From positions 103,348 to 167,347 of the forward strand of contig DATKVM010000002.1 in the NCBI GenBank assembly GCA_035530075.1: a stretch of DNA of 64,000 nt. The letters are read 5' to 3'. This document shows, piece after piece, positions 1,659 through 48,340 of the stretch. Source of the stretch: Patescibacteria group bacterium. GTDB lineage: Bacteria > Patescibacteriota > Microgenomatia > UM-FILTER-40-11. Positions within the stretch are counted from its first letter, which is position 1. Every line of letters starts with the position of its first letter. The notes under the pieces are model-generated. The model was not told the origin of the DNA. It was given only the letters and a program-made list of their open reading frames with translations, and did not search any database. The position numbers and the translations under genes are program-made.

Positions 1659-1940
1659 TTATTCTCCACCTAAAAGCCCTTGAAGTCCCCCGGACATTTC
1701 TTGAAGTTTTTTGGCCGCTGTTTCTTGCGACTGTTTTATCGCTTTATTGAGTTTATCTTTAATTAAATCGTTTTTAATGCCCTGGATTTCAAATTCCAAA
1801 ATTTTCTGGTCACCGGAAATGACAATATGGACCCCGTCTTCATCAAGCTCAATTTTTTCCTGACTAAGCTGTTTTTGAATCGCCATGGCCTGATCCCGCA
1901 TCTTTTTCAAATCTCCTAAAGATTTAAATGGATTATTCAT
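1659..1940 (-). CDS. ybaB: Nucleoid-associated protein YbaB/EbfC
   Basis: 93 aa with the family-typical sequence (GDLKKMRDQAMAIQKQL...VISGDQKILEFEI...KDKL). Sits in the canonical dnaX-ybaB-recR context. Confidence 0.85.
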   Translation of the reverse strand: MNNPFKSLGDLKKMRDQAMAIQKQLSQEKIELDEDGVHIVISGDQKILEFEIQGIKNDLIKDKLNKAIKQSQETAAKKLQEMSGGLQGLLGGE

Positions 1941-3556
1941 TGAACCGTTTCTCCTTCCTTGTTAAAAATTTCTTCGGCGAACTTAATTATATCATCGTCC
2001 TTCCCTTCTGCAACTTTCATCGTCTTTCCCGGTTTAGCCAAATTGACTTCCGATGGAAAATTATCCAAAACCGGCAATGGTTTTACCGGCCGTGAGGCCT
2101 CACTTAAACTGCATTTCAGCTTAATCGGCACCCCTAAAACCTCGCTGGCCACTTTTTCAAAAATCCGGCGGCATTTTTCCGACTCCAATTGATCTTTATG
2201 AAATTTATAAAAGACTTCCAGCATTAGAAAACCACCATCAATTGCCAGCGGCCGGCAAGCTTTTAAAAAGGCTTGAACCGAGTGATTAAGAGGTTTAACT
2301 TTTCCCAAGATTTCCGGCCATTTAACCAAAACACTCTCTAATGTTAATAAGGGCGAAGCCGCACTGGCGGGAATTCTTTCTCCATCAGGTTTTTCTTCCG
2401 CCTTTGCCAAAGCTCCCTTCGGGGAATTCCTGCTCTGGGAATCATTACTTTCATCCCCCGAGAGACTGCCCCGGCCGGACGGGTTGGCCAGGGAAGACCA
2501 TTCAACTACTGCCATTTCCAAAGGCAACGAAGGGATAACTGCCTGACGCAACTCTTGATAAGCGGTATTAAAAAGACTGATAAGCTGGCGAATTTCTTCT
2601 CGGCTAAAACTAAATTTCATTTCTCCTTCATCATCGACCCCAAAATCCGCCAAAAGCAAAGCTCTTAATTTCTCCAGCAATTCTTCCGTTAGGATTTTTA
2701 AATTGGCTCCTTGTTCGGTTGCTCGGCCCAGCCAAAGGAGGGCTTCTTTAATCCCCCCTTCTTCTAATAATTTCAAGAATTCTTCAACTTTAAATTCGGC
2801 TAAAATGCCGGCAGTATTTTTGACTTCCTCCTCAGTTATCTTACCGGCCAGCGCCGCTCTTTCCAAAATCTTAATAGCGTCACGAAAACTCCCGTCCGCG
2901 AGTTTGGCAATCGTCGCCAAAGCCTTTTCTTCATAGTCCAATTTCTCCTCCTCGCATATCTTTTTTAATCTCTCGACGATTTCCGGCCGGTTTGCCCGTT
3001 TAAAATTTATCTGCTGACAACGGGAAACAATCGTTTTGGGGAGTTTCTCCGGATCAGTAGTGCAAATAATAAAAAGAGCGTGAGCCGGCGGTTCTTCCAA
3101 AGTCTTTAAAAGAGCGTTAAAGGCTTCGGTCGTTAGCATATGGACTTCATCAATAATATAGACCTTATATTTTGCCCTCGCCGGCGCCAGCCTAATTTTT
3201 TCCCGCAGTTCTTTAATATCGTCAATTCCCCGGTTACTGGCGGCATCAATCTCTAAAACATCAATATTTGTTCCGTTGGTTATCGAAATACAAGAATCGC
3301 ACTGGTTACACGGCTCAAAGGTCTTCTCTCCCTGTGATACTTTTGATGCTTCTGATACCTTTGATACCTTCTCACAGTTCACTGCTTTCGCCACAATTCT
3401 GGCCGCTGAAGTTTTACCAATCCCCCGGGGGCCAGTGAATAAAAAGGCATGAGGAAACTGGCTGGAGCGGAAAATCTTAATCAGTTCCTCTCTAACAGCG
3501 CTACTGTCCAGTTCCTGGAAACTCTGAGGCCGGTATTTGAGATATAGAGTCGTCAC
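1937..3556 (-). CDS. dnaX: DNA polymerase III subunit gamma/tau
   Basis: N-terminal YRPQSF, Walker A GPRGIGKTS, DExx IIDEVHML, SRC motif and a zinc-module (CEK...CNQCDSC). The zinc module is interrupted by a KVSKVSEASKVSQ low-complexity insert encoded by a GATACNTTT repeat. Confidence 0.9.
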   Translation of the reverse strand: MTTLYLKYRPQSFQELDSSAVREELIKIFRSSQFPHAFLFTGPRGIGKTSAARIVAKAVNCEKVSKVSEASKVSQGEKTFEPCNQCDSCISITNGTNIDVLEIDAASNRGIDDIKELREKIRLAPARAKYKVYIIDEVHMLTTEAFNALLKTLEEPPAHALFIICTTDPEKLPKTIVSRCQQINFKRANRPEIVERLKKICEEEKLDYEEKALATIAKLADGSFRDAIKILERAALAGKITEEEVKNTAGILAEFKVEEFLKLLEEGGIKEALLWLGRATEQGANLKILTEELLEKLRALLLADFGVDDEGEMKFSFSREEIRQLISLFNTAYQELRQAVIPSLPLEMAVVEWSSLANPSGRGSLSGDESNDSQSRNSPKGALAKAEEKPDGERIPASAASPLLTLESVLVKWPEILGKVKPLNHSVQAFLKACRPLAIDGGFLMLEVFYKFHKDQLESEKCRRIFEKVASEVLGVPIKLKCSLSEASRPVKPLPVLDNFPSEVNLAKPGKTMKVAEGKDDDIIKFAEEIFNKEGETVQ

Positions 3557-9706: not shown

Positions 9707-12700
9707 TTAAAAGTTCTCTAAAGGGTCTCTGTTGAGCCGAACAAAAGCAAGCATCCAGATTAAAGCTACCCCTAACAAGACAAACCCCAAATATTCCAAA
9801 TACTGGGGTAAGAAGATTAAAAATACTCTTGACTGTTCACTAATTCCTGATTCCTGCAGACTATCCAATCTCCATCCGTTTTCCCAATTATTAACCAAAA
9901 CATGGTTTCTAATTTCCTGACCCAAAACTGGCGCCAGAAGAGCGCTTAGCGGCGAGCGCTTAGCGTCTAGTAAGTAGGCGTGCCAACCGGAATGATAGGC
10001 TTGAGAAAGAACGAGCGTGCCTTCTGTTACCGGCTGGGAGACTTCATACAAAGTCGGGTTGGGATGAGCGGCCGAAAGCGGTGTTAGGGCGGCGGTGGAA
10101 ACCGGCAGTTTTTGCCGCGTTAAACATAGGCCCGTCAAAAAACCATAAGGGATGGGGTTAACCTTCACCGCTTGCAAATCGTTAACTGTCTTTTGCCGGC
10201 CGATGGCAATATTATCAAAATGCAAAGAGTAACCCAGCCCATCTTGAGCCATTGGCGGTTGAATTAAGTAAGTAGTCGCCGTTTTTTTGTCTAGATAAAG
10301 CTCTAAATCTACTTTCTGGTTAGTTAAATTTTCCAGCCAAAAAAGCAAGCTTCGGCCGGATAAATAACGGCTTTGAATCGTTAGCAGGTAACCGAATTTA
10401 TGAGGCAATTCAGGCAAAAGAAACGACGCACTGCAATTATTGGCATCTTGGGCACTCAAGCGCAAGATTTCCTTTCCCCCTTGAGAAACAATTTCACTCG
10501 CCACTTGACCGCTTTTGGCCTGGCTGCAGTTCCTAATCGTCAAAGGGTTAAGAGCCCGGGCAACCTCAATCGCGGCGCTAAAATAGCCGTTAACTTTGGG
10601 AATAAAGACCACCAGTTCACTGCCGTAATCTCGCACTTGGGGAATGAGAATCCGGGTTTTACTTAAGTCGTTTGGGTCAACCCAAACCAGCTCCTGACCG
10701 CTAAAAGAAGGCAGGTGTAAAAAATAATTAGTCACCGCCGAAGGCAGCTTTTGGCGAAAGACAAAATTATTTTCTCCCTCCTCAATTCCGAAATCCTGCT
10801 CGTTAGTATCCCGGCCACTAAAAAGCGTTCGGAAAGGATAATAATAATCGACCCGCTCTAAAACAGATGAGCTTAAGTAATGGCCTTGTTCCCAAAATGC
10901 TTGATCAAAATTGCCCCACTCATAAGGAGGATTAACCGTGGGAAGACTTTTGGCCCAATAAACGAAGCCGGCGGGCGGATTTTTCTCCACCCGATAAACT
11001 TTAATTTTGCCGAAGTTGGCGGTGAGGTTAAATTTGGGAGAGTCCAAAAAGGCCGTTAGCTCTTCCCACCCAGCGGCCCGCCAACTGGAGCTATTGACAT
11101 TGTTTTCATCAATTAAAATCCAGCTTACTTGATATTTCTCTAAAACCTTTTCAAAAAGTGGTTGATTTTTAGAAAACAAAGCATAAGAAATTTCCCAATA
11201 ATAATTTTCGTTTGCTCCCCCCCAAGGGTCAAAAGCGCGGTCCAAAATTGGCTGTTCTATGCCATACCAAATAAAGCCGGAACCGCTATAATCGCCTCCC
11301 GGCCAATGATAGAAACTCCACCCCCAAAAATTTGTCTGGGGAAAATTAGCAATTCGGCCACTTTCTCCTTGTTTTCGAAAAAAGTCAAAAAGTTGGAAAT
11401 ACTCCGGAGGGAAGACCACCTTTTCCTTCGCATAGAAAAGCTGCCCCTGGAAAACCGGCCAAACAAAAATCAACGGCAAGATTAAGAAAAATAAACAAAG
11501 CATCTCTCGGTAAAGCCTCCCTCGCCATCCCTCAAGCTTAAAACTCCCGGCCATGGCCAGACTGATACCATAAAAAATCGCTAAACCAAAAGCCGATATC
11601 GGACTGAACTTAGTAAAAGCAAAGCGAAAGAGCTGGGAAAAAAGCGGCAGACGATAAAAAATGGCGGCCGGTAAGGAAAGAAAAGGGGTATCATTAAGGA
11701 GCATTAAAAACCCGAATAAAAAAACCGGTAAAAACAACGCTGCCCGATGCTTTTTCTTAAAGGCCGCTACTGTCCCCCCCAAAGCCATCAGAAAAAGAAA
11801 ATAACCCAGCGCCTTTACCGGCGGTTTTTGCAGATACTCTTCCCAAGCACCCATCATCGGTTGAAATTGGTTTTCTTGATTTGGTTCGATATTGTCAAAC
11901 CAAAAGCCCTTAAGCAAGGCGACATTCTCTAAATTGCCGTACTTTTTATTGCGTAAATAGTTCTCCTCGGTGGACATCAAATTAATTTTTGACTTGAAAG
12001 TCACTTTAACATTGGTCAGGACAAAGTAAAGGTTCGGCAGCAACCAAAAAGCGTTGAGCATAAAAGTTAACAGGTAAATCAAAAGGATTCTTCGCCAACT
12101 CCCTTTTTGGCGCCACCAAAATAAGATAAGGGTCAAAGATAGGCTCGTCAGGTAGACCAAAAGAAAGGTCGCGACATAGCCTTGAGCCACCGCCAAAAGA
12201 TTAACCGCCACCAGCCAAAAAAGATGTTTTTTGGTCGGTTTTTCCAAGAACTTTAGAACCACCAAGAATAACCAAGGAAGAAAAGCGAAATGAAGGGAAA
12301 AGGCCTCGTAGGGAACAAAAAAAAGCTGCAGGGTCGCCAGGTTAAAAAGATAAAAGAAGCTGGCTACTAGCGCGCCCCTCTTTCTTTGCCAAGAGTCATT
12401 CTCCTGAGCTAAAACAAAATTTTTCAATAGGAAATAAAGGCCTAATGGCCCCAAGAGAAGCATTAAAAAGTGGAAAAAATAGCGCATAAAGGCAATGGGC
12501 AAGAAAAAAGCGAGGCTTCTTAAAAAAAGTTGACGAAATAAGTCGGCGGCGTGTCCCATGCCGGGAAGCAATCCTAAACCTTGGTACTCTTGCCAAGCAG
12601 AAAAAAATAAACGGCGTAAATTAACGGCGAAGTTAAATTCCGGGTGCAAATTATCCCAACCAGATAAAAAAGTGCCCGGTTGATAATTTAAACCGGCCAC

Positions 12701-12775
12701 GAGGAGAACAATGACGGTGATAAGTATCGTCGGCCACTCTATTTTTTCCTTAAGCCAATGACCCAGTTTTATCAT
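9707..12775 (-). CDS. Large polytopic membrane protein, putative GT-C-type glycosyltransferase (YfhO-like)
   Basis: 1022 aa. The N-terminal ~550 aa contain at least 12 predicted TM helices rich in aromatic residues, followed by a large soluble C-terminal domain. It sits immediately upstream of a GT2 gene. The family call is an inference. Confidence 0.45.
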   Translation of the reverse strand: MIKLGHWLKEKIEWPTILITVIVLLVAGLNYQPGTFLSGWDNLHPEFNFAVNLRRLFFSAWQEYQGLGLLPGMGHAADLFRQLFLRSLAFFLPIAFMRYFFHFLMLLLGPLGLYFLLKNFVLAQENDSWQRKRGALVASFFYLFNLATLQLFFVPYEAFSLHFAFLPWLFLVVLKFLEKPTKKHLFWLVAVNLLAVAQGYVATFLLVYLTSLSLTLILFWWRQKGSWRRILLIYLLTFMLNAFWLLPNLYFVLTNVKVTFKSKINLMSTEENYLRNKKYGNLENVALLKGFWFDNIEPNQENQFQPMMGAWEEYLQKPPVKALGYFLFLMALGGTVAAFKKKHRAALFLPVFLFGFLMLLNDTPFLSLPAAIFYRLPLFSQLFRFAFTKFSPISAFGLAIFYGISLAMAGSFKLEGWRGRLYREMLCLFFLILPLIFVWPVFQGQLFYAKEKVVFPPEYFQLFDFFRKQGESGRIANFPQTNFWGWSFYHWPGGDYSGSGFIWYGIEQPILDRAFDPWGGANENYYWEISYALFSKNQPLFEKVLEKYQVSWILIDENNVNSSSWRAAGWEELTAFLDSPKFNLTANFGKIKVYRVEKNPPAGFVYWAKSLPTVNPPYEWGNFDQAFWEQGHYLSSSVLERVDYYYPFRTLFSGRDTNEQDFGIEEGENNFVFRQKLPSAVTNYFLHLPSFSGQELVWVDPNDLSKTRILIPQVRDYGSELVVFIPKVNGYFSAAIEVARALNPLTIRNCSQAKSGQVASEIVSQGGKEILRLSAQDANNCSASFLLPELPHKFGYLLTIQSRYLSGRSLLFWLENLTNQKVDLELYLDKKTATTYLIQPPMAQDGLGYSLHFDNIAIGRQKTVNDLQAVKVNPIPYGFLTGLCLTRQKLPVSTAALTPLSAAHPNPTLYEVSQPVTEGTLVLSQAYHSGWHAYLLDAKRSPLSALLAPVLGQEIRNHVLVNNWENGWRLDSLQESGISEQSRVFLIFLPQYLEYLGFVLLGVALIWMLAFVRLNRDPLENF

Positions 12776-13689: not shown

Positions 13690-13813
13690 TTTTCTCTCAA
13701 CTGCTACCCACCAGTTCCCTGCTGGGCAAAAGTTGAGGGGAGAGAGTCTTTGGCTAAACGAAAGCTTCAAGAGGCTCTCTCCCCAGTAAGTAACCGTAGA
13801 CATACCGCAACCG

Positions 13814-14794
13814 CTAGATTTCCACCTCCTGGCCCTCCGAGTATTTACGATGGAACTCGGCTTGATGGGCCGACCAGCGCTCATCCAAAGCGGTTTGGCT
13901 AGGGAAGGGAAAGGATGTTCCTCGACCATCCCAGGAGTAGGTTTGGCCGCTGTTCAGCTTGACCAGCAAGGCTTTGCCGTCTTTGGTTGTCGTTTCCACA
14001 ATCGCCGGACCTTCGACTTCTGCCGAACTTTGACCAACGGGTTGGCTGACAGTGACGAGTGACGAAAGAGCCAAGTCAGAATCGCTCGAGCCGGGATTGC
14101 TAGAGGTGTTGCCGGCCGAGGACGTCTGAACCCGAACCACGAGACGGAAAGCGGAGACTTGATCGGGCAGCACCACAATCCCTGTCTGCATTTCGCCGTC
14201 GCGAATTCGAAGCTGCTCGGCTTGCAACTGGATGTTCTCTCGCACGGCTGCTTCATCTCCAGCGAAGAGCCAAGCGGTTCCGCCGCGATGACCGCGAATC
14301 CAAACGACCGTTCCTGGCCGAATGGCGAAGGTCCATCGTTCTGGAACTACCGTCTCCTCAAAGGCCATCTCCGTCCAAACTTGACCGACAATCCAACAGA
14401 TTTCGGAGAGACCACCAATCGGCGACTCGCCGTAAGTCTCGCCAAACTCCTGGTTATCAGCGTGCCAGATAATCCCGCAGCAGGGACAGGGAGCGGGTGC
14501 CGCCGGAGCCGGAGTGGGACCACCGCCAACAGGTTGAGGCGGAGGTACCGGTGTTACCCCCCCACCCGCAGCCACAGCCGGGACTACCTTAACCGAGACG
14601 ACCGGGGCGACGACGCTGGCCACGACTGGCTGAGCAAGGCTCACTGGGGCCGCCAGTTCACTGGCCTGCGCCAATTCCTCTACCCGTGCTTGAACATCGG
14701 AGCGAAGACTAGCAACCCAGACCAACAGAATCGCCAGCACCAGTAAGAAGACGGCCCTTTTCATCTTTTTCTCCTTTCGGTATGCCATTGTCAA
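13814..14794 (-). CDS. Pro-rich membrane-anchored protein with a Trp-rich C-terminal domain (paralog P1)
   Basis: Signal/anchor helix, an A/V/P-rich linker (PVPPPQPVGGGPTPAPAAPAPCPCC), then a WHADNQEFGETYGES...CWIVGQVWTE...TAWLFAGDEAAV domain shared with 17512..18255 and partly with 16516..17130. Local GC is about 60%. Confidence 0.5.
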   Translation of the reverse strand: MTMAYRKEKKMKRAVFLLVLAILLVWVASLRSDVQARVEELAQASELAAPVSLAQPVVASVVAPVVSVKVVPAVAAGGGVTPVPPPQPVGGGPTPAPAAPAPCPCCGIIWHADNQEFGETYGESPIGGLSEICWIVGQVWTEMAFEETVVPERWTFAIRPGTVVWIRGHRGGTAWLFAGDEAAVRENIQLQAEQLRIRDGEMQTGIVVLPDQVSAFRLVVRVQTSSAGNTSSNPGSSDSDLALSSLVTVSQPVGQSSAEVEGPAIVETTTKDGKALLVKLNSGQTYSWDGRGTSFPFPSQTALDERWSAHQAEFHRKYSEGQEVEI

Positions 14795-14923
14795 AGAGCT
14801 TTTGATGGGTCAGGAGATTCCTGCCTAAAAAGAATCTTGACCAACACCAAACTCTATGGAAATGAGTTTAAAGGGCGGAAACCAAAAGGGGGTAATAAAA
14901 AAGTAAGAGAAAGGTAAGAAGGC

Positions 14924-15541
14924 TTAGCGTCGATTAAAAACCGCCAAGACAACCCCCATCATCGCCGTTACTGCCGATAAAACTAATGAAAGTGTTAAAC
15001 CGGAAAAACCGGTGGGGGGAAGAACCGTCACTGCCGCCACTTTCTTGGCCGCACAAACTTTGGCGGTATCCTTATCGTGTCGATCCCCCGCTTGCGCTTC
15101 GGCAATATTAACATCACAAACTACATTTTGATTTTGAGGTAAATTTCCTTCTTCCACTACCCGAGCTTTGATTTCTCTTTCTTCAGTTTCCCCCGAGGTC
15201 AAGTCGGTAATTTCAAAAGAAAGACTGCCTGAACTAAGGCGCAAGAAGAATGGCAAAGTATCAGAAACGGTTACTTTATCTAAAGTAGCGTCGCCCACAT
15301 TTTTAATTCGCAATTGAAAAACGACTTCTTCTCCCGGAGCGAATTTATGATCAGTAATATCCAAATTATCGACAAATCGCTGGTTTACCGGATCAAGGAC
15401 AACTTTGTTTATTTGCAGTTCACCGGTTTTAATACAAACCTCCCCTCCGTATTGTTGCTCGCAGCGAACCGCCGCTTGCGCGTCGGCCATTAGCCAAAAG
15501 CAAGCTAAAAAGGAAGCGGCCAGAAAAACAATTTTTTTCAT
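14924..15541 (-). CDS. LPXTG-anchored surface protein with a DUF11 (CARDB-like) domain
   Basis: Signal peptide, DUF11-like segment (GEEVVFQLRIKNVGDATLDKVTVSDTLP), C-terminal LPPTG motif, hydrophobic helix and NRR tail. Confidence 0.7.
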   Translation of the reverse strand: MKKIVFLAASFLACFWLMADAQAAVRCEQQYGGEVCIKTGELQINKVVLDPVNQRFVDNLDITDHKFAPGEEVVFQLRIKNVGDATLDKVTVSDTLPFFLRLSSGSLSFEITDLTSGETEEREIKARVVEEGNLPQNQNVVCDVNIAEAQAGDRHDKDTAKVCAAKKVAAVTVLPPTGFSGLTLSLVLSAVTAMMGVVLAVFNRR

Positions 15542-15691
15542 TCTTTAATCTTTACTGAGTCTTGAGCTTGATAAACCCGTTCCAAAATTTTCCCCCCGCA
15601 TTATGAAGAGAGATAGCAAAAGTTGTCAAGCAAAACAGACTTTCATCTGCTTGCATTTATTTACTTAAACGCCTTACCTTGAAAATCGCAA

Positions 15692-16426
15692 ATGGAAATA
15701 ATCCTTTACGACGCTCAGCCATTAACGGAAAAAACTACCCCCACTTTGAGGCAACCGCTCATGGTCCTTTGGCGGCAAGCTCGGTCAACCAGCAAGCGAG
15801 CCTTTCGCTTAAGCGGTTACATTTTAATATTGCTATCTTTCTTAATCTCAGTGGTAGTGGCCGGGCCAATAGTAATTCAGGAAGTCGGTTATCGGCTTAC
15901 TCAAAAGCCTTTTGCCTCTCAAAAGGAAGGGCCTTCGAATCCCGCCTTAAAAGAACAGCGCCAGCAAGCAGCGGAAGAAGCGCGTAACTACGGCGTGAGT
16001 CCCGACTTTTCCATTGTTATCCCCAAGATTGACGCTAAAGCAAAAATTATCCCTAATGTTAATCCCGCGGATGAGAGGGAATACAAGAACGCTCTCAAAG
16101 AAGGCGTTGCTCACGCCTCAGGAACCAAATTTCCCGGCCATAAAGGCACCATTTACCTTTTTGCCCACTCGACGAATTCGCCCATCAACATTGCCCGTTA
16201 CAATGCCGTCTTCTACCTTTTAAAAGAACTTCGCAAAGAGGATGAAATTATTATTTTTTTCGCCGGCCAAAAATATGTTTATCGGGTCACTGAGCGTTTT
16301 GTCACCGCCGCTGACGACACCAAATGGCTAACTAATCAAGAAAAAGAAGAACAGCTGGTTCTCCAAACTTGCTGGCCACCGGGAACCAGCCAAAAAAGAC
16401 TGCTGGTAATTGCCAAACCGGCCTAA
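15692..16426 (+). CDS. Sortase (class A/E-like transpeptidase)
   Basis: N-terminal TM anchor, catalytic His (IYLFAHST), TLxTC Cys motif (LVLQTCWPPGT) and a downstream Arg (KRLLV). Divergently adjacent to the LPPTG substrate gene. The true start may be the internal Met at about 15761. Confidence 0.7.
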   Translation: MEIILYDAQPLTEKTTPTLRQPLMVLWRQARSTSKRAFRLSGYILILLSFLISVVVAGPIVIQEVGYRLTQKPFASQKEGPSNPALKEQRQQAAEEARNYGVSPDFSIVIPKIDAKAKIIPNVNPADEREYKNALKEGVAHASGTKFPGHKGTIYLFAHSTNSPINIARYNAVFYLLKELRKEDEIIIFFAGQKYVYRVTERFVTAADDTKWLTNQEKEEQLVLQTCWPPGTSQKRLLVIAKPA

Positions 16427-16515
16427 AAATAAATTTCTGGGAGAGGCAAGAAGTTAAGCTGGCGCCCCCTGGCTATCCAAACTCTCCTTCCTGCCCCTCC
16501 CGAACATCGGTCATC

Positions 16516-17130
16516 CTATTCCTCCGGCTTGCCTTCATTGCAGTCCTGATTGCTATCGAAGTATTCCGTCCGGTGAGAGGGATAGCGGCTGTCCACTGCG
16601 GCTTCGGAAGCGAACTGCCACCAAGTCCCCATCCCGTCATAACGGAAGGTTTCTCCCTCAGGGAGACGAAAAATGCCGCATTCGTGGTTACCGTCCCACC
16701 ATTGGACAATTGCCGGCCCTTTCGTCTCGCCAGGGAATTGACCGGAAGAGACCGGGTGTGCCTCCTCGGCCGCCAGATTGACAACCGTCGGTGTTCCCTG
16801 GGCACTGATCGTTGAAGTCACTACCGGCGATGCGGTTCCTCCGGGCAGAAGGGATCCTGGACTGGGAAGAACCTTCACCGCCAAAGTCGCTGTTTGCATC
16901 AACAAGCGCCGTTCCTGCTCGATTGCCACCACCTGGCGACGACCGGAGATAGTCATAAAGAAAAGCGCGAGGGTAGCCAAGAGGAGAAAACCCACTATCG
17001 CCAGCCACCCACCGTTTTTCTTCAGCCGTTCCTTGTAGTCTGTCGACTCTCCCTCTCCTGGTTCATCCCTCACCGGGAATGGCGGCCTTCTCATGGACAC
17101 TTCTACTCTTCCTTTCCTAGCAGTAGCCAT
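16516..17130 (-). CDS. Pro-rich membrane-anchored protein, shorter paralog P2
   Basis: Arg-rich N-terminus, TM helix, P/S/T linker and a C-terminal W-rich segment (TWWQFASEAAVDSRY) matching TAWLFAGDEAAVREN of P1. Lies in the GC-rich island. Confidence 0.45.
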   Translation of the reverse strand: MATARKGRVEVSMRRPPFPVRDEPGEGESTDYKERLKKNGGWLAIVGFLLLATLALFFMTISGRRQVVAIEQERRLLMQTATLAVKVLPSPGSLLPGGTASPVVTSTISAQGTPTVVNLAAEEAHPVSSGQFPGETKGPAIVQWWDGNHECGIFRLPEGETFRYDGMGTWWQFASEAAVDSRYPSHRTEYFDSNQDCNEGKPEE

Positions 17131-17511
17131 TTTCTCTCGCCTTCCTTCAGGGCCAATGCCCCTTCAGTTTTACCGACGATAAGGACAACCGAATGTAAAA
17201 GAACTCGCTCCTGCCTCACTCCCGCTTAAAGAAGCGGCAAAAAAGCTTTCTCTAAAATTAAGGTAATGTTCTTTAAAAAAACTCGCAAAAACATAAAGGG
17301 AATAAAAAAATAAATGGTGAGAATAATTGAATCTCTATGAAAAGTAGTCTAGCGAGTAATCAAGCAATCTTTGATAAAAAGGAAGTAAGAGTTTAGTAAG
17401 AAGAATTTTGGGAGAGGTACCGCTACTTTGTCTGTTTTAGTTGAGATCTGAGCGATTTTTAGCAGAACTCGGTAGTTTCCCTCTCCCTAGACTTCACGGC
17501 ATATCCTCCTA

Positions 17512-18255
17512 TTAAGAAGTGGCGGCCACTACCAGCCAGCAACGATTGGCTTCGTCAGGCAAGAACACCTTGGTTATTTCCGCCTGGGGATCCCTCGTTC
17601 TTAACTCTCTTTCCTGCTTTCCCAAATCAGCCTCCACCACCGACCTTTCACCCGCGAAAAACCAAGCAATGCCCCCCCGATAGTCAGTGAAGGTAACCGT
17701 CGTTCCCGGAGCAATGGCAAAAATCCAAACCTCAGCGGTCCCTGCCCGATCGGTCCAGATTTGCCCTACCAGCCAGCAGTCTTCATCGGCATCACCTAAG
17801 GTAGTCTCTCCAAAAAGCTCGCCGCCGGGCTGGTTAGGGTTATGCCAAGCTACACCCCCCTTCTGGCACGTCTCTACTTCAACGGTTGGCTGACGAGGAA
17901 GAGGGGTCGTCGGGGGATTTGGCAACGGGGTGGGGGTAGCAAAAATAGAGGTCGGCGTGTTCGTGGCAGCGGGGCCACTGGTCACCCTGGTTGGTGGAAC
18001 TACCTGTGGCAAGAGTGTCGGAAAGGGAGTTGCCGTGATTACCCGTTCAACTACCCGGACGGGCCTTGGTCGCAAAGCAAAGTAAATCGCGAGTATCAAC
18101 AAGATTGCCGCAACCACGCTCAAGAGGATGGCGAGAAGGCGCAAGAAGCCCGCTCCCCATCGATCGTTATTTTTCGGCCGATTGCCTTTCGGCTCTCTCG
18201 GCGGATCGACTTCCGACCGCCCGGAGGTATTTCCTGCCGATCTCCCCTCTCCCAT
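17512..18255 (-). CDS. Pro-rich membrane-anchored protein with a Trp-rich C-terminal domain (paralog P3)
   Basis: TM helix, a PT-rich linker (TPTPLPNPPTTPLPRQPT), then WHNPNQPGGELFGETTLG...CWLVGQIWTD...IAWFFAGERSVV aligning with P1. GC-rich. Confidence 0.5.
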   Translation of the reverse strand: MGEGRSAGNTSGRSEVDPPREPKGNRPKNNDRWGAGFLRLLAILLSVVAAILLILAIYFALRPRPVRVVERVITATPFPTLLPQVVPPTRVTSGPAATNTPTSIFATPTPLPNPPTTPLPRQPTVEVETCQKGGVAWHNPNQPGGELFGETTLGDADEDCWLVGQIWTDRAGTAEVWIFAIAPGTTVTFTDYRGGIAWFFAGERSVVEADLGKQERELRTRDPQAEITKVFLPDEANRCWLVVAATS

Positions 18256-18458
18256 AGCTCACCTCACCTCTTCTGATGTGATATGCCTTTTTCAAAGAAC
18301 TCTTTGATAATTCCACCTCTAGGCGCTTTTACCCGGATGAAAGTACCAAAGTCTCTTAAGTCTTAGGCTAAGCAATCGGAGTCAACCGTAAATACGAATG
18401 GCGTAAGGAGAGCGTAAGCATCAGGTAAAAATGTGTTACAATTAAGAGGCAGCAGTCT

Positions 18459-20612
18459 ATGATTAAAGAAGACTTACCTTTTTCCCTCATTGAAATCCGA
18501 TTACCAAAAAACAGTGAGAAAACGCCCGAAGCCGCTCTTCAGCTGTTCGCTTCTTTCTCTTCTCTTCCCCGAAAACCGCTCTTCTCCCTTAAACCGCCAG
18601 TCAGTATCGGTTTTGAGATTGTTTCCATCGATCAGCTAATTCATTTCTTAATTGCTTGCCCGAAAGAGTGGCAAAATTATGTGGAAAGCCAAGTTTCCGC
18701 TCAATACCCGGAAAGCGTAATGACTCTCTTGCCCAAAGACTACTTGGCCGGTTATCTTCCTAATTTTACCCCCTCGGTCGGGCAACTAGTCCTTTCTTCC
18801 CCTTTTTATCTTCCCTTACGAACTTTTCGCGACTTAAAAGAAACTGATTTGCTTTCTTCCGTTTTAGGAGCAATGTCTAAATCTTCCCCCAACGATTTTA
18901 TAGTTTACCAAATATTAATCGCTCAAGCGGGTAATTGGCAGGGCTTTGCCCAAGGACTTATTAATAAAGGCATTCCCTCCGGCGAAGAAGGCAAAGTTCT
19001 TCCCCACCCCCAAGCTAAAAATATCACTTTAAAAATTGGCAGTAGCGGTTTCTGGACGGCAATTCGTCTAATTACTAACTCTGCTACTTCCCTTCGGACT
19101 TTGGCTAATACCTTTTCCAGTTATCAGGGTGAGGTTAATTCCTTAAGATTTAAAGAGCCCTACTCTTTTCAGCGGAAAAAATTAATCGATGCCTGCCTTA
19201 AGCGTTCTTTCGAGCTGGCACCAGCTAATCAAGTCCTTAATTTAGAAGAATTAGCTTCTTTATGGCATCCACCCGGGAAAATACTTTCCGGAATAAAGAA
19301 TATTGCTTGGACTCAAGAAGCAATGTCCGAACCCCCCCTTAATTTACCGGTAGCGGCCGATATCGATGAAGCGGATAAAAAAGAAATTAATTTTTTCGCC
19401 CGGGCCGAATTTAAAAACCGAATTGCCACTTTCGGGATAAAGAAAAAAGACCGGCGACGGCACATCTATATTATCGGCAAAAGCGGCACCGGCAAATCAA
19501 CTTTAATCGCTAATATGGCCATTAATGATTTGCGCAATAAAGAGGGCTTGGCGGTGATTGACCCTCATGGAGATTTAACGGAAATCCTTTTGGACTACAT
19601 CCCCTCTTTCCGCATTAACGAAACTTGCTTTCTTGATCCCAGTGATACGGAATATCCTTTCCACTTAAATCCGTTGGAAATTAAGAATCCCGCTCACAAA
19701 GAATTAGTCGCTTCGAATATAGTCGCGATCTTTTACAAGCTCTATTACTATTCTTGGGGGCCACGGCTGGAATACATTCTGCGCAACACGATTCTTACTT
19801 TACTGGAAACTCCCCAACCAACTTTAGTTCAAGTAATCGACCTTTTGGCCAATAAAAACTTCCGACGGCAGACAGTAGAAAAATTGGAAAATCCGGTTTT
19901 GAAAAATTTTTGGCTGAATGAATTTGAAAAGATGGACGAGAGGACCAAAGCGGAAGCTATTTCGCCCATTCTCAATAAAGTCGGCCAATTTACTTCTTCC
20001 CCGACGATTCGCCAGATTATTGGCTCCTATCATTCAACCGTTGATTTGGAAAAGATTATGAACGAAGGCAAGGTGCTTCTGGTCAACCTCTCTCAAGGAA
20101 AAATCGGTGAAGATAACGCCGCCTTACTGGGAGCAATGATTATTACTCAGCTTCAATTGGCGGCAATGAATCGTATCCGCATGCCTGAAGAAGAAAGGCG
20201 CGACTTTTATCTTTATGTCGATGAATTTCAGAATTTTGCCACCAGCGCATTTACTAAAATCCTTTCTGAGGCGCGCAAATATCGGCTCGATCTTTGCCTA
20301 GCCAACCAGTACATCGGCCAGCTAGGCGAAGAGTTACAAAAAGCAATTTTCGGCAACGCAGGAACGCTCGTTTCTTTTGTTATTGGCGCTCAGGACGCTA
20401 AACTCTTGACCGGAGAAATGGGCCAGGTTTATAAAGAAGAAGACCTGGTTTCCTTAGGGATGTACCAAGTCGCCTTGAAGCTTTGCATTGACAATTTAAC
20501 TTCGACTCCATTTTTAGCCAGCACTTTACCACTTCCCCGTTGCCGTAATCAAAACCGAGAGAAAGCGCTCCGAGTTTCTAAAGAGAAGCACACCGTTAAA
20601 AAGAAGGGTTAA
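18459..20612 (+). CDS. VirD4/TraD/TrwB-like (type IV coupling protein family) P-loop ATPase with an uncharacterised ~330-aa N-terminal domain
   Basis: Walker A IIGKSGTGKST is followed by AVIDPHGDL, as in TrwB (GTTGSGKS...VIVDPNGD). Walker B is YLYVDEFQNF. A conserved LANQYIGQL Gln block and GNAGTLVSF match TrwB/TraD. No N-terminal TM helices are evident. Confidence 0.6.
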   Translation: MIKEDLPFSLIEIRLPKNSEKTPEAALQLFASFSSLPRKPLFSLKPPVSIGFEIVSIDQLIHFLIACPKEWQNYVESQVSAQYPESVMTLLPKDYLAGYLPNFTPSVGQLVLSSPFYLPLRTFRDLKETDLLSSVLGAMSKSSPNDFIVYQILIAQAGNWQGFAQGLINKGIPSGEEGKVLPHPQAKNITLKIGSSGFWTAIRLITNSATSLRTLANTFSSYQGEVNSLRFKEPYSFQRKKLIDACLKRSFELAPANQVLNLEELASLWHPPGKILSGIKNIAWTQEAMSEPPLNLPVAADIDEADKKEINFFARAEFKNRIATFGIKKKDRRRHIYIIGKSGTGKSTLIANMAINDLRNKEGLAVIDPHGDLTEILLDYIPSFRINETCFLDPSDTEYPFHLNPLEIKNPAHKELVASNIVAIFYKLYYYSWGPRLEYILRNTILTLLETPQPTLVQVIDLLANKNFRRQTVEKLENPVLKNFWLNEFEKMDERTKAEAISPILNKVGQFTSSPTIRQIIGSYHSTVDLEKIMNEGKVLLVNLSQGKIGEDNAALLGAMIITQLQLAAMNRIRMPEEERRDFYLYVDEFQNFATSAFTKILSEARKYRLDLCLANQYIGQLGEELQKAIFGNAGTLVSFVIGAQDAKLLTGEMGQVYKEEDLVSLGMYQVALKLCIDNLTSTPFLASTLPLPRCRNQNREKALRVSKEKHTVKKKG

Positions 20613-35568: not shown

Positions 35569-36678
35569 CTACTTAATCCCGTACATTCCTTCCCCAAAGT
35601 TCTTTATTATACCGCGGAGTTCCAAAATTGAAAGTATGCTTCCTAACCGACCACTTTCTATTTTCAGTTTTCTGGCAATTTCATCAATATGCTGATTTTC
35701 ATTCTCCAAAATTTCCACAATCTTTAATTCATCTCCGGCTAACTCCTCCTTTGATACCTTTGATACTTTTGATACTTTTGATACTTTTGATACCTCCATA
35801 TTCAGCTCTTCCAAAATATCCTCCACACCATTTACCAGCTTGGCCCCTTTTTTAATTAACTCGGCGGTTCCCGCCGAAAGAGGTGAAGTAATCGGGCCGG
35901 GAACGGCAAAAACCTCTCGACCTTGCTCAGCGGCACAAGAGGCGGTTATAAGTGAGCCGCTGTCCTCGGCCGCTTCTGTCACCACCACCCCCAAAGACAA
36001 ACCGCTAATAATCCGATTTCTGGCTGGAAAATTTCCCGGCACTGCCTGCATCCCTAAAGGAAATTCGCTAATAATCGCCCCACCGGCCGCCACAATTCTT
36101 TCAGCCAAGTCTTTGTGTTCCGGTGGATAAATTAAATCCAAACCGCAACCCAAGACCGCGATTGTCAGACTGCCGTTGAGAAGAGCCGTTTCGTGGGCAA
36201 TCCGATCAACTCCCCGGGCCAACCCCGAAACTATCATTAAACCGGCTCCCGCCAGCCCCTCAGTTATTATTTCCGTCACTTGTCGTCCGTAAGCGGTTAC
36301 TTTCCTCGTTCCGACAACAGCGACCGCCTTTTTACTCAAAAAACCCAGTTCTCTTTGTCTGCTCTTGACGTATAAAACGGGAGGGCTACCTGCTATTTCT
36401 TTTAGCAGTTTCGGGTAATTTTCTTCTTCGGCAAAAGTTACCTTTATTCCTTTTTGCTCCAGCCGAAGGAAATACGAATTGCCGTCGAAGCTTTGCCGGA
36501 AAGAAAGAAAATTTCCTACTAGTTTCTCCCCTAACCCAATTTCCCTCAAACTTTTTTCCGGGGCGACAAAGGCCCTTTTAGCGGAACCAAAATAATCCAA
36601 AAGCAATTTGAACCTTACCGGCCCAATCCCCTGGAAAACACTAAACGCCAACCAAGCTTTCTTCTCTTCTAAGTCCAT
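35569..36678 (-). CDS. dprA: DNA processing protein DprA/Smf
   Basis: SAM-like N-terminus (GIGPVRFKLLLDYFGS), Rossmann core (VVGTRKVTAYGRQ...GLARGVDRIAHE...) and a C-terminal winged helix. A (KVS)5 in-frame repeat precedes the WH domain. Confidence 0.85.
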   Translation of the reverse strand: MDLEEKKAWLAFSVFQGIGPVRFKLLLDYFGSAKRAFVAPEKSLREIGLGEKLVGNFLSFRQSFDGNSYFLRLEQKGIKVTFAEEENYPKLLKEIAGSPPVLYVKSRQRELGFLSKKAVAVVGTRKVTAYGRQVTEIITEGLAGAGLMIVSGLARGVDRIAHETALLNGSLTIAVLGCGLDLIYPPEHKDLAERIVAAGGAIISEFPLGMQAVPGNFPARNRIISGLSLGVVVTEAAEDSGSLITASCAAEQGREVFAVPGPITSPLSAGTAELIKKGAKLVNGVEDILEELNMEVSKVSKVSKVSKVSKEELAGDELKIVEILENENQHIDEIARKLKIESGRLGSILSILELRGIIKNFGEGMYGIK

Positions 36679-43657: not shown

Positions 43658-43765
43658 CTTAGCTTCTAATTGCTACTTGTCTCAGGTGTAACAAATGCAT
43701 ATTATTTCCTTTAAGTGCCTAGCTCTTTGGCACAATTCGACAGCGGGGAAAACGGGAGGCAAAAA

Positions 43766-44221
43766 ATGAGAAGGCTAATGGTTCTTACGGTTCTCGTTGT
43801 TGTCTTGGTTCCTCTCAGTTCCGTCCTGGCCGATGGTGGTTCACCAACGAGTAAGCCGTTGGGTCTGACCGACATTAGTGCCGGGTGGCACGCAGGGATG
43901 ATGGTTATCATTGGGTCTTCTCCGGTGTACGCTGGCCCTTACGGTCAAGAAAAGCTCGGAACTATTCCGGGGGTGGTCAAGGGGCAAATCCCAAGCTTAC
44001 CACCAAGGGTGGTCCGTAACTGGTCCGCTCACCAACTGGTAACCTATGCGGTACCCCTGGAGGTAAACAATAGGGTAGCAGTCTTACCCCTGGGAGAAGC
44101 CTTCGACCATTGGCGGGGAATAGGCTGGGTTCCTAAAGCAAAAGTCACTCCCCTTGCCATCTATCAGGGGCAGTTCGATGAAAGGGAATCTCAACCCTCA
44201 CTCCACCTTTGTTCGCAGTAG
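43766..44221 (+). CDS. Secreted hypothetical protein
   Basis: A strong SD (GGGAGG-N6-ATG) precedes a signal-peptide-like N-terminus (MRRLMVLTVLVVVLVPLSSVLA). GC is elevated, and the gene is flanked by 11-bp inverted repeats (CGACAGCGGGG). The start at 43766 was chosen over the upstream ORF-track Met. Confidence 0.45.
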   Translation: MRRLMVLTVLVVVLVPLSSVLADGGSPTSKPLGLTDISAGWHAGMMVIIGSSPVYAGPYGQEKLGTIPGVVKGQIPSLPPRVVRNWSAHQLVTYAVPLEVNNRVAVLPLGEAFDHWRGIGWVPKAKVTPLAIYQGQFDERESQPSLHLCSQ

Positions 44222-47798: not shown

Positions 47799-47910
47799 GC
47801 CCTAATTTAATACTTGACTGCCGGAAGCCAATTGGTCTAAAATATCTTCTTAGTCCTGCCTAAACGGGCCAGTTTTGAAAAACGCTTTTCTCTACAAGTT
47901 CAATACGTAA

Positions 47911-47980
47911 GGGGGGACGAAGTCCCTGTACCAAGTTGGCACAGAGCAGTCCACCCACCTGGGTTTCCCAGGGAATAGCG
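47911..47980 (+). ncRNA. Structured RNA-like element, copy 1 (unclassified)
   Basis: Three predicted hairpins: GGGAC-GAA-GUCCC, CUGUACC-AAGUU-GGCACAG and CCUGGG-UUU-CCCAGG. About 85% identical to copy 2 at 48159..48228, with partly compensatory substitutions in hairpin 2. Non-coding. Confidence 0.35.
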
Positions 47981-48070
47981 GTCAAAACCAAATCGTTAGG
48001 CGGGGCTTTAACTTAAACAAAAATCGCTTTCAAAACCTAGATTTTCTTCAAACATAGAAAAAGTTACTTC

Positions 48071-48099: not shown

Positions 48100-48158
48100 T
48101 TCACCCAATCCTGCCCAAAAGACTCAAGTCTGATATCGCACCCCCAATTTAAATTGTT

Positions 48159-48228
48159 TGGGAGGACGAAGTCCCTGTACCATAATGGTCCAGGGCAGTC
48201 CACCCACCTGGGTTTTCAGGGGAAAGCA
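48159..48228 (+). ncRNA. Structured RNA-like element, copy 2 (unclassified)
   Basis: Same three-hairpin architecture as copy 1 (GGAC-GAA-GUCC; CUGUACC-AUAAU-GGUCCAG; CCUGG-GUUUU-CAGGG). Lies about 60 nt downstream of a consensus promoter. Confidence 0.35.
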
Positions 48229-48340
48229 ATTAAGGCCAATCTTCACGGCAGGATTAACTTTACCTATTTTCTGCGAGACTCTTCCTGCCATTTACCTCAA
48301 GCCTAATTTAGGATAAAATATAGTTGCATTCCCGTAGAGT

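What the first reader, a model, noticed from the sequence alone, without database searches (positions are those of the whole stretch)
13800..18300. GC-rich (~60% versus ~48%) island encoding three paralogous Pro-rich/Trp-rich membrane proteins around a sortase and its LPXTG substrate
Composition shifts sharply in 13.8-18.3 kb (for example 14.4-14.6 kb and 17.9-18.1 kb are visibly GC-rich). Three genes (13814..14794, 16516..17130, 17512..18255) share one layout: a short basic N-terminus, a TM helix, a Pro/Thr/Val-rich linker and a Trp-rich globular domain. The shared motifs are WH.(D/N)NQ.FGET.G...CW(I/L)VGQ(V/I)WT(E/D) and (T/I)AW(L/F)FAG(D/E). No known family was recognised. The paralogs flank a divergent sortase/LPPTG-DUF11 pair. 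Composition and paralogy suggest a horizontally acquired or fast-evolving surface-protein island.
Basis: seen in the sequence. Interest (0 to 1): 0.65.

Follow-up and report, generated by a model that had tools for sequence, protein, structure and literature searches.

The report
GC-rich co-regulated surface-protein genes, CPR bacterium
Three genes in a candidate-phyla-radiation (Microgenomates-like) bacterium encode membrane-tethered surface proteins built from two previously undescribed small domains; in every genome found to carry them they are 5-22 points richer in G+C than their surroundings, they share a private upstream control element, and they have been swapped between related lineages, but what they do is still unknown.

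Summary
The region is not one GC-rich island. It holds three separate gene-sized GC peaks (57-59% against 45% for the window). The sortase/LPPTG pair between them has ordinary composition.

P1 (13814..14764) carries a Trp-rich domain A plus a about 65-aa domain B. P3 carries A only and P2 carries B only. A and B look distantly related. Neither matches Pfam, NCBIfam, PHROGs or any solved structure.

The family is small: 71 clusters at 50% identity among 1.84 billion proteins. Wherever neighbouring genes could be read, the context was CPR-like. In all 18 loci examined the family genes are GC-richer than their background.

The gene order is conserved in related genomes, so this is not a recent foreign island. 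Even so, gene histories conflict with those of the flanking genes, which indicates allele exchange between lineages.

New here: a CTTAC-N6-CTTAC direct repeat occurs exactly three times in 64 kb, once upstream of each gene, and is conserved in orthologues. That points to a single regulon.

The most likely function is stalk-mounted envelope or surface binding proteins that do not depend on sortase. This is inferred, not shown.

The parts
13814..14764 (-). P1, 316 aa: signal peptide (residues 1-26, ending VQA|R), 66-aa Ala/Val/Pro linker, domain A, Ser-rich linker, domain B
   Evidence: a gene call of 316 aa on five contigs; AAGGAG ribosome-binding site before the ATG at 14764
14120..14491 (-). 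P1 domain A (residues 92-215), Trp-rich, with two invariant Cys among close relatives
   Evidence: jackhmmer envelope; AF2 pLDDT about 90; conservation
13817..14032 (-). P1 domain B (residues 245-316), the 'GPAIVE' module
16516..17130 (-). P2, 204 aa: 38-aa basic cytoplasmic tail, TM helix (about residues 41-63), 70-aa linker, domain B (residues 135-199; 16534-16728)
17512..18255 (-). P3, 247 aa: 32-aa N-terminal tail, TM helix (about residues 35-62), 66-aa Pro/Thr linker, domain A (residues 129-245; 17521-17871)
14892..14918 (-). Upstream direct-repeat array of P1: CTTAC-N6-CTTAC-N6-ATTAC (11-bp period). The exact CTTAC-N6-CTTAC pair ends 138 nt before the ATG
17385..17400 (-). Upstream direct repeat of P2: CTTAC-N6-CTTAC, 254 nt before the ATG
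18403..18429 (-). Upstream direct-repeat array of P3: TTTAC-N6-CTTAC-N6-CTTAC, 147 nt before the ATG
15692..16426 (+). Sortase (native GC, 46.9%); conserved neighbour
   Evidence: Pfam PF04203, E = 2.4e-24; NCBIfam sortase TIGR01076 above its cut-off, class D/C models below theirs
14924..15541 (-). Sortase substrate: signal peptide, one DUF11/CLIPPER domain, LPPTG, TM helix, RR (native GC, 44.3%)
   Evidence: CLIPPER is the new name for DUF11, a CnaA-like isopeptide domain (PMC12617251)
12775..13689 (-). Family-2 glycosyltransferase, 304 aa (real start at the ATG at 13689); conserved immediately downstream of P1-type genes
9707..12775 (-). 1022-aa polytopic membrane protein with no family match; conserved partner of the GT2 gene
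18459..20612 (+). VirD4/TraD-like coupling ATPase that bounds the block; used to place the organism

Best explanation
P1, P2 and P3 belong to a small protein family that, wherever its genomic context could be read, lies in CPR (Microgenomates-like) genomes. Each protein is exported and held at the membrane by an N-terminal signal or signal-anchor helix. Each carries a 66-70-residue stalk rich in Pro/Thr/Ala/Val and ends in one or two small beta/alpha modules: A (about 120 aa, Trp-rich) and/or B (about 65 aa, 'GPAIVE').

Shown:
- The domain architecture and the confident, unmatched folds.
- The absence of sortase signals.
- Conserved positions around a sortase/CLIPPER-LPPTG pair and directly upstream of a GT2 gene plus a roughly 1000-aa membrane protein.
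- A private upstream array of (C/A/T)TTAC half-sites spaced 11 bp apart in front of all three genes and their orthologues.
- A family-wide GC excess of 5-22 points over any background.
- Gene histories that conflict with the flanking genes.

Inferred:
- The three genes form one regulon, driven by a factor that binds direct repeats on one face of the helix (OmpR/PhoB-like in format).
- The modules are binding or structural units rather than enzymes, because the residues invariant across the family are Trp, Gly and Pro. They would be presented beyond the wall to bind an envelope glycopolymer or a partner-cell surface.
- The genes circulate by homologous replacement among related lineages. This exchange, through GC-biased gene conversion or a shared donor pool, would keep their composition at its own set point of roughly 52-60% GC.
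For: Architecture and topology. AF2 gives pLDDT of about 90 in both modules and disordered linkers.

Family size and architectures (A+B, A, B, B-A-x-B, Bx2-4).

Conserved synteny.

GC. The three genes have the top three GC3 values of 49 ORFs. GC-ending codons are raised in all degeneracy classes, unlike the housekeeping genes. Family ORFs exceed the rest of their locus in 18 of 18 loci, at 0.52-0.68 against 0.37-0.54 (0.37-0.47 in 17 of the 18).

Exchange. The flanking genes give ((L001,L002),W) by amino-acid identity. At four-fold sites, P1-3 differ by 0.32 between W and L001, against 0.54 between L001 and L002 and 0.56 for the flanks between W and L001 (Fisher p = 5e-9). P2 and P3 amino-acid identities show the same conflict.

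Operator. There are 3 exact matches in 64 kb against 0.05 expected, all upstream of the three genes. The element is kept at the same distance in L001, L002, L004 and L006, with one-mismatch versions in the remaining orthologues.

Binding rather than catalysis: the residues invariant in at least 85% of 57 A domains are W, G and P only. In a Shapirobacteria genome the P1 slot holds a LysM (cell-wall-binding) protein that is also GC-rich.
Against: No ligand, localisation or expression data exist, so the function rests on architecture and neighbourhood.

No regulator gene was found; only 10 of the window's mid-sized ORFs were screened.

The lower synonymous divergence between W and L001 could partly reflect constraint on synonymous sites rather than exchange. 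Only three lineages with long enough DNA could be compared.

Homology between A and B is weak (hhalign probability 34%).
Confidence: 0.5

Rival explanations
1. A recently acquired foreign genomic island from a GC-rich donor.
For: The genes have atypical GC, codon use and amino-acid composition. In the closest GTDB relative found by ATPase similarity, the whole block between the ATPase and RseP is absent from that position (L007). Gene histories are incongruent with the flanks.
Against: Only the three genes are GC-rich, not the enclosed sortase pair or the spacers. The order and the GC peaks are conserved in genomes as distant as about 40% amino-acid identity. No integrase, tRNA attachment site or flanking repeats were found. 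No relative turned up in 185,579 GTDB species representatives, in phage records or in IMG/VR. All informative loci have low-GC backgrounds.
Confidence: 0.08
2. Vertical inheritance with intrinsic composition. On this view the GC excess simply reflects the amino-acid make-up (Pro, Ala, Gly, Val, Thr, Trp) plus codon selection for high expression, and no exchange is involved.
For: GC1 and GC2 are strongly raised, and the proteins are enriched in residues with GC-rich codons while depleted in Lys, Ile and Asn. Housekeeping genes (S2, EF-Ts, RRF) also have somewhat raised GC3. The offset persists through speciation.
Against: GC3 is raised in every degeneracy class, including C-ending two-fold pyrimidine codons (0.54 against 0.34). 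The housekeeping set does not show that shift (0.34). Vertical descent cannot give W-L001 synonymous divergence of 0.32 when L001-L002 is 0.54 and the flanks place L001 with L002.
Confidence: 0.17
3. The proteins are accessory parts of a sortase-assembled fibre: tip, base or chaperone components for the CLIPPER-LPPTG protein.
For: The genes lie adjacent to the sortase and its single substrate in five genomes.
Against: P1-3 have no LPXTG or pilin-type motifs. In L017 a P1-type gene sits next to GT2 and the large membrane protein with no sortase nearby. In Shapirobacteria the sortase pair is present without any family member. The operator is upstream of P1-3 but not of the sortase or CLIPPER genes.
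Confidence: 0.1
4. Domain A and/or domain B is an extracytoplasmic enzyme, for example one that remodels the wall or modifies a glycan, working together with the adjacent GT2 and the 1022-aa membrane protein.
For: P1-type genes are consistently adjacent to the GT2 and large membrane protein genes. Domain B keeps conserved Q, R and H residues.
Against: Domain A has no invariant catalytic-type residues. Neither module resembles any hydrolase or transferase fold. Tandem B repeats on flexible linkers are typical of binding modules.
Confidence: 0.1
5. An artefact: spurious ORFs on GC-rich non-coding DNA, real genes on the opposite strand, or an assembly chimera.
For: Long antisense ORFs overlap all three genes (195, 148 and 144 aa).
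Against: The antisense ORFs are all in exact codon register with the sense genes. That is the known artefact of avoiding the codons TTA, CTA and TCA, read here from the coordinates. The sense proteins have homologues down to E = 1e-20 or lower with conserved domains, and AF2 models them confidently. The arrangement recurs in independent JGI, NCBI, ENA and Logan assemblies.
Confidence: 0.01

Closest known systems
Gram-positive-type sortase loci with LPXTG adhesins carrying CnaA-like/CLIPPER (DUF11) domains
   Same: A sortase lies next to a secreted protein with a CLIPPER domain and an LPPTG-TM-RR sorting signal. The neighbouring genes encode surface proteins with Pro-rich stalks that could span the wall.
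   Different: P1-3 are anchored at the N terminus and have no sorting signal. Their modules are unrelated to CnaA/CnaB folds. They also occur without a sortase (L017), and the sortase pair occurs without them (L008).
Small repeated cell-wall-binding modules (LysM, SPOR, PASTA, SH3b)
   Same: Module B is about 65 aa and extracytoplasmic. It occurs singly or in two to four tandem copies joined by Pro/Ala/Ser/Thr linkers. A LysM protein occupies the equivalent genomic slot in a Shapirobacteria genome.
Operators of OmpR/PhoB-family response regulators (for example the WalR site TGTWAH-N5-TGTWAH, recalled from own knowledge)
   Same: Two or three direct-repeat half-sites with 11-bp spacing lie upstream of the likely promoter. 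They sit in front of a set of envelope-protein genes. On the opposite strand the repeat reads NGTAAG-N5-NGTAAG.
   Different: No cognate regulator has been identified. The half-site sequence differs. Binding and the transcription start site have not been tested.
Compositionally atypical genomic islands and recombination-associated GC enrichment (gBGC; Lassalle et al. 2015, PMC4450053)
   Same: Composition is atypical, gene histories conflict with the flanks, and the block is absent from the equivalent position in one relative.
   Different: There are three separate gene-sized units with no mobility genes. Synteny is conserved. The offset is a property of the family across many backgrounds, and it is larger than the GC3 shifts usually ascribed to gBGC in bacteria (own knowledge; the paper was not read here).

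Membership tests
Sortase substrates (LPXTG proteins) | C-terminal LPXTG-like motif followed by a hydrophobic helix and a basic tail | tested here: not met
   P1 ends ...SEGQEVEI, P2 ends ...NEGKPEE and P3 ends ...LVVAATS. Each has only an N-terminal hydrophobic segment. The DUF11 protein does meet the test (LPPTG, a TM helix, RR).
Horizontally acquired genomic island | Atypical base composition and codon use | tested here: met
   GC is 57-59% against 45%; GC3 z-scores are 2.6-3.1.
Horizontally acquired genomic island | One contiguous block with mobility genes, tRNA or attachment-site borders, or flanking repeats | tested here: not met
   There are three separate peaks and the enclosed genes have native composition. 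No integrase, tRNA or flanking repeats were found.
Horizontally acquired genomic island | Patchy presence among close relatives and gene trees that conflict with the species tree | tested here: inconclusive
   The genes are present in the same order in W, L001, L002 and L006, with partial loci in L004, L022, L023 and L024. The block is absent from that position in L007, and family members are absent from L008. Histories are incongruent. However, only three lineages could be compared, and L007 is a short contig.
Any curated protein family (Pfam-A, NCBIfam, PHROGs) or solved fold | A significant profile or structure match | tested here: not met
Targets of diversity-generating retroelements | A template/variable repeat pair and a nearby reverse transcriptase | tested here: not met
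   No repeat involving the three genes was found anywhere in the 64-kb window. The genes scanned in the block (9.7-20.6 kb) include no reverse transcriptase.
Bacterial lipoproteins | A lipobox (L-x-x-C) at the end of the signal peptide | tested here: not met
   P1's signal peptide ends ...VASLRSDVQA|R with no Cys, and P2 and P3 have internal signal anchors. Some distant family members do have lipobox-like ends (P0021 ...GAFAC, P0041 ...LSGC, P0053 ...SLAC).
OmpR/PhoB-type regulon operator | Direct-repeat half-sites with 10-11-bp spacing upstream of several co-regulated promoters | tested here: met
   CTTAC-N6-CTTAC occurs three times against 0.05 expected, only upstream of P1-3, and is extended to three half-sites in P1 and P3. 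It is conserved in the orthologues.
OmpR/PhoB-type regulon operator | A cognate response regulator that binds the site | not testable with these tools
   None was found among 10 mid-sized ORFs of the window. The rest of the genome is not available.

The most novel reading that the evidence does not exclude
The three genes would be an exchangeable, co-regulated cassette set for partner or host recognition in an episymbiotic CPR bacterium. On this reading, modules A and B are new surface-glycan-binding folds. Alleles are swapped between lineages, changing binding specificity. The frequent recombination, through GC-biased conversion, has driven a whole gene family to a composition 13-22 points above its genomes. 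That would make it one of the clearest gene-specific gBGC signatures in bacteria.
Probability: 0.12. Interest if true: 0.7.

Novelty: new variant of a known kind. Interest (0 to 1): 0.45.

Why it matters
How CPR/Patescibacteria attach to and recognise partner cells is largely unknown outside Saccharibacteria type IV pili (one search found only such work). This study defines two uncharacterised extracytoplasmic modules, a small regulon with a clear operator, and a conserved envelope gene neighbourhood (sortase-CLIPPER, GT2, a roughly 1000-aa membrane protein). These are concrete handles for experiments.

Separately, a gene family that keeps its own base composition across genomes of 37-47% GC, while showing inter-lineage exchange, is a clean natural test case. 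It could help separate recombination-driven GC enrichment from selection and from foreign origin.

If none of this holds, the region is simply a set of lineage-specific hypothetical surface proteins.

Tried and rejected
- **Phage or plasmid-like origin.** tblastn against 50,697 phage records and a scan of IMG/VR gave no relatives.
- **A GC-rich donor.** Contexts of distant members were sampled (P0016, P0021, P0023, P0030, P0041, P0054, P0069). Wherever neighbouring genes were present, they were lower in GC than the family gene.
- **GTDB representatives.** No member matched with the close-relative patterns. The patterns are narrow, so divergent members could have been missed. An HMM scan of the seven ATPase-linked GTDB loci also found none.
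- **DGR or repeat-based diversification.** No repeats were found.
- **Mobile-element borders.** None were found.
- **Antisense ORFs as real genes.** Rejected: they are in codon register, which is a known artefact of GC-rich coding sequence.
- **Polarised substitution counts, to test amelioration.** Too few sites were available and the outgroup is saturated. AT-to-GC and GC-to-AT rates per site were about equal in both targets and flanks, so the test was uninformative.
- **Recombination tract borders.** Synonymous divergence is lowered across the whole length of all three genes, with no sharp mosaic.
- **Identity of the 1022-aa membrane protein.** No Pfam, NCBIfam or PDB match. The idea that it is a GT-C-type partner of the GT2 remains untested.
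- **A regulator gene in the window.** None was found among the 10 ORFs screened.

Full report
**1. What is in the sequence**

The window averages 45.1% GC. With a 300-bp sliding window, only three long stretches reach 54% or more: 13701-14850 (peak 65%), 16351-17150 and 17501-18300. Each coincides with one minus-strand gene:
- P1, 13814..14764
- P2, 16516..17130
- P3, 17512..18255

Their GC is 59.1%, 56.7% and 57.0%. Their GC3 values (0.60, 0.61, 0.58) are the three highest among 49 ORFs in the window, against a mean of 0.44 and a standard deviation of 0.05.

The genes between them are not GC-rich. These are a sortase (15692..16426, +) and a divergently transcribed DUF11 protein ending in LPPTG, a TM helix and RR (14924..15541, -). 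They have 46.9% and 44.3% GC. The P2-P3 spacer has 37%. So the 'island' is really three gene-sized peaks.

The shift affects every codon class:

| Codon class | P1-3 | Background |
|---|---|---|
| Two-fold pyrimidine codons ending in C | 0.54 | 0.34 |
| Two-fold purine codons ending in G | 0.53 | 0.35 |
| Four-fold sites, GC | 0.60 | 0.51 |

It also affects amino-acid composition: more Ala, Gly, Pro, Val, Thr and Trp, and fewer Lys, Ile and Asn. The housekeeping genes in the window do not show the pyrimidine shift. This therefore looks like a general compositional regime, not the codon bias of highly expressed genes.

**2. The proteins**

The likely P1 start is the ATG at 14764, six bases after an AAGGAG site. 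This gives 316 aa, which matches the public gene calls.
- P1 has a cleavable-looking signal peptide (residues 1-26).
- P2 has a 38-residue basic N-terminal tail followed by one TM helix.
- P3 has a 32-residue basic N-terminal tail followed by one TM helix.
- All three then have a 66-70-residue linker rich in Pro/Thr/Ala/Val, followed by a globular part with 2.5-2.8% Trp.

P1 and P3 share a roughly 120-residue domain A. Among close relatives it has invariant W, G, P and two Cys. P2 does not contain A. It matches the roughly 65-residue C-terminal domain B of P1, the 'GPAIVE...SQ..L..RW..H..EF' module.

Profile-profile comparison of A and B gives a weak but full-length match (P = 7.5e-5, probability 34%). 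In the AlphaFold model both have the same order of elements (five strands, a helix, a strand), and A adds one strand at each end. The claim of 'three paralogues' therefore holds only at this distant level.

The model is confident in both modules (pLDDT about 90) and disordered in the linkers.

**3. No known relatives**

These searches found nothing:
- Pfam, NCBIfam and PHROGs gave no matches.
- A profile search of PDB sequences gave a best E of 0.49.
- Foldseek against the PDB and BFVD gave no hit at E of 1e-3 or below.
- The AlphaFold database library was not available.

Word-seeded searches of 5.8 billion proteins found only 8, 5 and 2 relatives for P1, P3 and P2. An exhaustive HMMER profile search of 1.84 billion cluster representatives found 71, one of them spurious. 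The architectures are A+B, A alone, B alone, B-A-x-B, and two to four tandem B modules.

Across 57 A domains, the positions conserved in at least 85% are only Trp, Gly and Pro. This favours a binding or scaffold role over catalysis.

**4. Organism and neighbourhood**

The adjacent VirD4/TraD-like ATPase is 70% identical to one from a Candidatus Shapirobacteria genome. It is 44-59% identical to those of other Microgenomates/Patescibacteria. The window therefore comes from a CPR bacterium of the Microgenomates group.

In related metagenomic contigs the order ATPase-P3-P2-sortase-CLIPPER(LPXTG)-P1-GT2-large membrane protein is conserved. It holds down to about 40% identity of P1 (L001, L002/L003, L006; partial in L004). 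In a more distant, 33%-GC genome, a P1-type gene again precedes a GT2 gene and a homologue of the large membrane protein, with no sortase nearby (L017).

Two relatives differ:
- In the nearest GTDB genome by ATPase similarity (L007), the ATPase abuts RseP and the whole block is missing from that position.
- In Shapirobacteria (L008), the sortase/CLIPPER pair, the glycosyltransferases and the large membrane protein are present. However, the P1 slot holds an unrelated LysM protein with 61% GC in a 35% background.

DUF11 has been renamed CLIPPER. It is a CnaA-like domain with an intramolecular isopeptide bond, typical of adhesin stalks (PMC12617251).

**5. The GC excess belongs to the family, not to this strain**

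All 18 loci that carry a family member were examined (about 14 are independent). In every one, the family ORFs are GC-richer than the rest of the locus, by 0.05 to 0.22. Family GC stays at 0.52-0.60 (one gene at 0.68). The rest-of-locus GC ranges from 0.37 to 0.47 in 17 of the 18 loci. The exception is 0.54 in L020, where the 417 bp of 'rest' include the end of another family gene. No locus showed a GC-rich genomic background, so no donor was identified.

A few neighbouring small membrane or secreted protein genes are also GC-rich:
- L006 12007..13248
- L017 184..1215
- L014 1019..1396
- window 43715..44221

**6. Evidence for exchange between lineages**

For the four flanking genes, amino-acid identity places L001 with L002 (0.81-0.90) and W outside (0.67-0.87). 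Four-fold sites in these genes are near saturation in all pairs (0.52-0.56).

For P1-3, the four-fold difference between W and L001 is only 0.32 (70 of 220 sites). It is 0.54 between L001 and L002 and 0.58 between W and L002. The contrast with the flanks for W-L001 is significant (Fisher p = 4.7e-9), and the other two pairs do not differ from the flanks.

P2 and P3 show the same conflict in amino-acid identity: 0.76 and 0.81 for W-L001 against 0.55 and 0.63 for L001-L002.

The lowered synonymous divergence extends over the whole length of all three genes. Nucleotide identity is raised from about 16.15 to 18.4 kb, spacers included, and over the 5' two-thirds of P1.

Vertical descent with any uniform rate cannot produce this pattern. 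The simplest reading is replacement of these genes by alleles from a related lineage, after L001 and L002 split. Protein divergence relative to synonymous divergence is also much higher than in the flanks, so the genes are fast-evolving.

**7. A shared control element (new observation)**

The direct repeat CTTAC-N6-CTTAC occurs exactly three times in the 64-kb window. Only 0.05 matches are expected, and no shuffle out of 100 gave three. All three copies are on the coding strand upstream of P1, P2 and P3, and they lie 138, 254 and 147 nt before the respective start codons.

In P1 and P3 a third half-site (ATTAC or TTTAC) continues the 11-bp period.

The element lies at the same distance upstream of the orthologues in L001, L002, L004 and L006. 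The orthologues that lack an exact copy carry one-mismatch versions, often as three half-sites. It is not present upstream of the sortase, CLIPPER or GT2 genes, nor upstream of distant family members.

Two further conserved upstream boxes were seen:
- Upstream of P1 and P2 and their orthologues, a conserved (C/T)RTAGA box lies about 46-53 nt downstream of the exact CTTAC-N6-CTTAC pair, i.e. about 35 nt after the third half-site in P1.
- A CTCTTT(G/T)ACAA box lies in the leader.

Half-sites repeated once per helical turn are the format used by OmpR/PhoB-family regulators (own knowledge). No regulator was found among the 10 ORFs screened. I infer that the three genes form one regulon. Binding and the transcription start site are untested.

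**8. Interpretation**

The best-supported picture is a lineage-restricted set of co-regulated proteins. Each is N-terminally anchored and mounted on a stalk, and each displays one or two small modules of unknown fold outside the membrane. They are independent of the sortase and associated with envelope glycosylation genes. The modules most likely act as binding units for an envelope polymer or a partner-cell surface.

Their composition is a stable attribute of the family and goes with inter-lineage exchange. GC-biased gene conversion (PMC4450053) or circulation from a shared gene pool are the candidate causes. Neither is shown.

The reading of a recent foreign island is not supported. A purely compositional, vertical explanation fails on the incongruence. 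Artefact explanations also fail. The antisense ORFs are in codon register, which is the expected by-product of a GC-rich coding sequence. The arrangement also recurs in independent assemblies.

**9. Verdict**

The domains and the operator are undescribed, but function remains inferred. Interest is moderate. The main value lies in the family-wide GC offset combined with the incongruent histories and the clean three-site regulon.

Noticed in passing
window 14892-14918, 17385-17400, 18403-18429 (minus strand): The direct repeat CTTAC-N6-CTTAC (11-bp period, extended to three half-sites in two cases) occurs exactly three times in the window (0.05 expected). Each copy lies upstream of one of the three GC-rich genes. 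It is conserved at the same distance in orthologous loci L001, L002, L004 and L006.
   Followed up: yes
window 47850-48010 and about 48110-48260 (+): Two tandem, roughly 85%-similar GC-rich elements lie just upstream of a tRNA gene. The first gives a full-length but sub-threshold match to 6S RNA (RF00013: 33.2 bits against a gathering score of 46.4; E = 9e-5). Both have complementary ends (GTCCTGCC...GGCGGGGC and ATCCTGCC...GGCAGGAT). They may be two divergent 6S-like RNAs.
   Followed up: partly
L008 6378-7277 (Candidatus Shapirobacteria PEVD01000019): In the genomic slot that P1 occupies in the window, this genome has an unrelated 299-aa secreted LysM protein. Its GC is 61% and its GC3 is 0.72, in a 35% GC background. 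The slot therefore attracts GC-rich secreted-protein genes of different families.
   Followed up: partly
L007 8776-12151 (CAYVNK010000008): In the closest GTDB relative by ATPase identity (78%), the ATPase lies directly next to the RseP-like M50 protease. The whole 11-kb block (P3 through the 1022-aa protein) is absent from this position. The record is labelled 'uncultured Gammaproteobacteria', which looks like a mislabel for a CPR bin.
   Followed up: partly
window 43715-44221 (+): This gene has the fourth-highest GC3 in the window (GC 53.8%, GC3 0.55). It encodes a small 168-aa protein with an N-terminal hydrophobic helix and no family match. It lacks domains A and B and has no CTTAC repeat.
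   Followed up: partly
window 7416-9428 (-) and 30642-32456 (-): Two paralogous large proteins (670 and 604 aa) share repeated coiled-coil units ('KGGSSHL..EL..EQ.RL') and similar C-terminal domains. DNA repeats occur at 8779-8886, 31687-31794 and 32131-32238. Neither protein has a family match. The first replaces a different, Trp-rich 184-aa membrane protein found at the same position in L001 (13357-13911, GC 55%).
   Followed up: no
window 60001-62295 (+): A 764-aa secreted protein extremely rich in Cys, Pro and Thr. It has internal duplications (exact 40-nt repeats at 60353 and 60503; 60-nt repeats at 60832 and 61276) and a C-terminal globular part. GC2 is high (0.54) but GC3 is low (0.39). 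There is no family match.
   Followed up: no
window 3315-3396, 35723-35813, 53331-53412: The same 9-nt tandem repeat (TTTGATACT and variants) occurs inside three different ORFs: 1937..3556 (-), 35569..36678 (-) and 52797..53645 (+).
   Followed up: no
window 14159-14746 (+), 16369-16815 (+), 17842-18276 (+): Long antisense ORFs (195, 148 and 144 aa) overlap P1, P2 and P3. All are in exact codon register with the sense gene. This is the expected artefact of GC-rich coding sequence that avoids the codons TTA, CTA and TCA, so they are not genes.
   Followed up: yes
window 12775-13929 (-): The mechanical ORF for the GT2 gene extends 80 codons upstream and overlaps the 3' end of P1. The real start is most likely the ATG at 13689 (MKINNSS...), which gives 304 aa as in the orthologues.
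   Followed up: yes
L006 10268-11759: A more distant relative carries a second sortase and a second CLIPPER-like substrate (LPKTG) downstream of the large membrane protein. These are followed by two more GC-rich genes (12007-13248; GC 55-58% in a 41% background).
   Followed up: no
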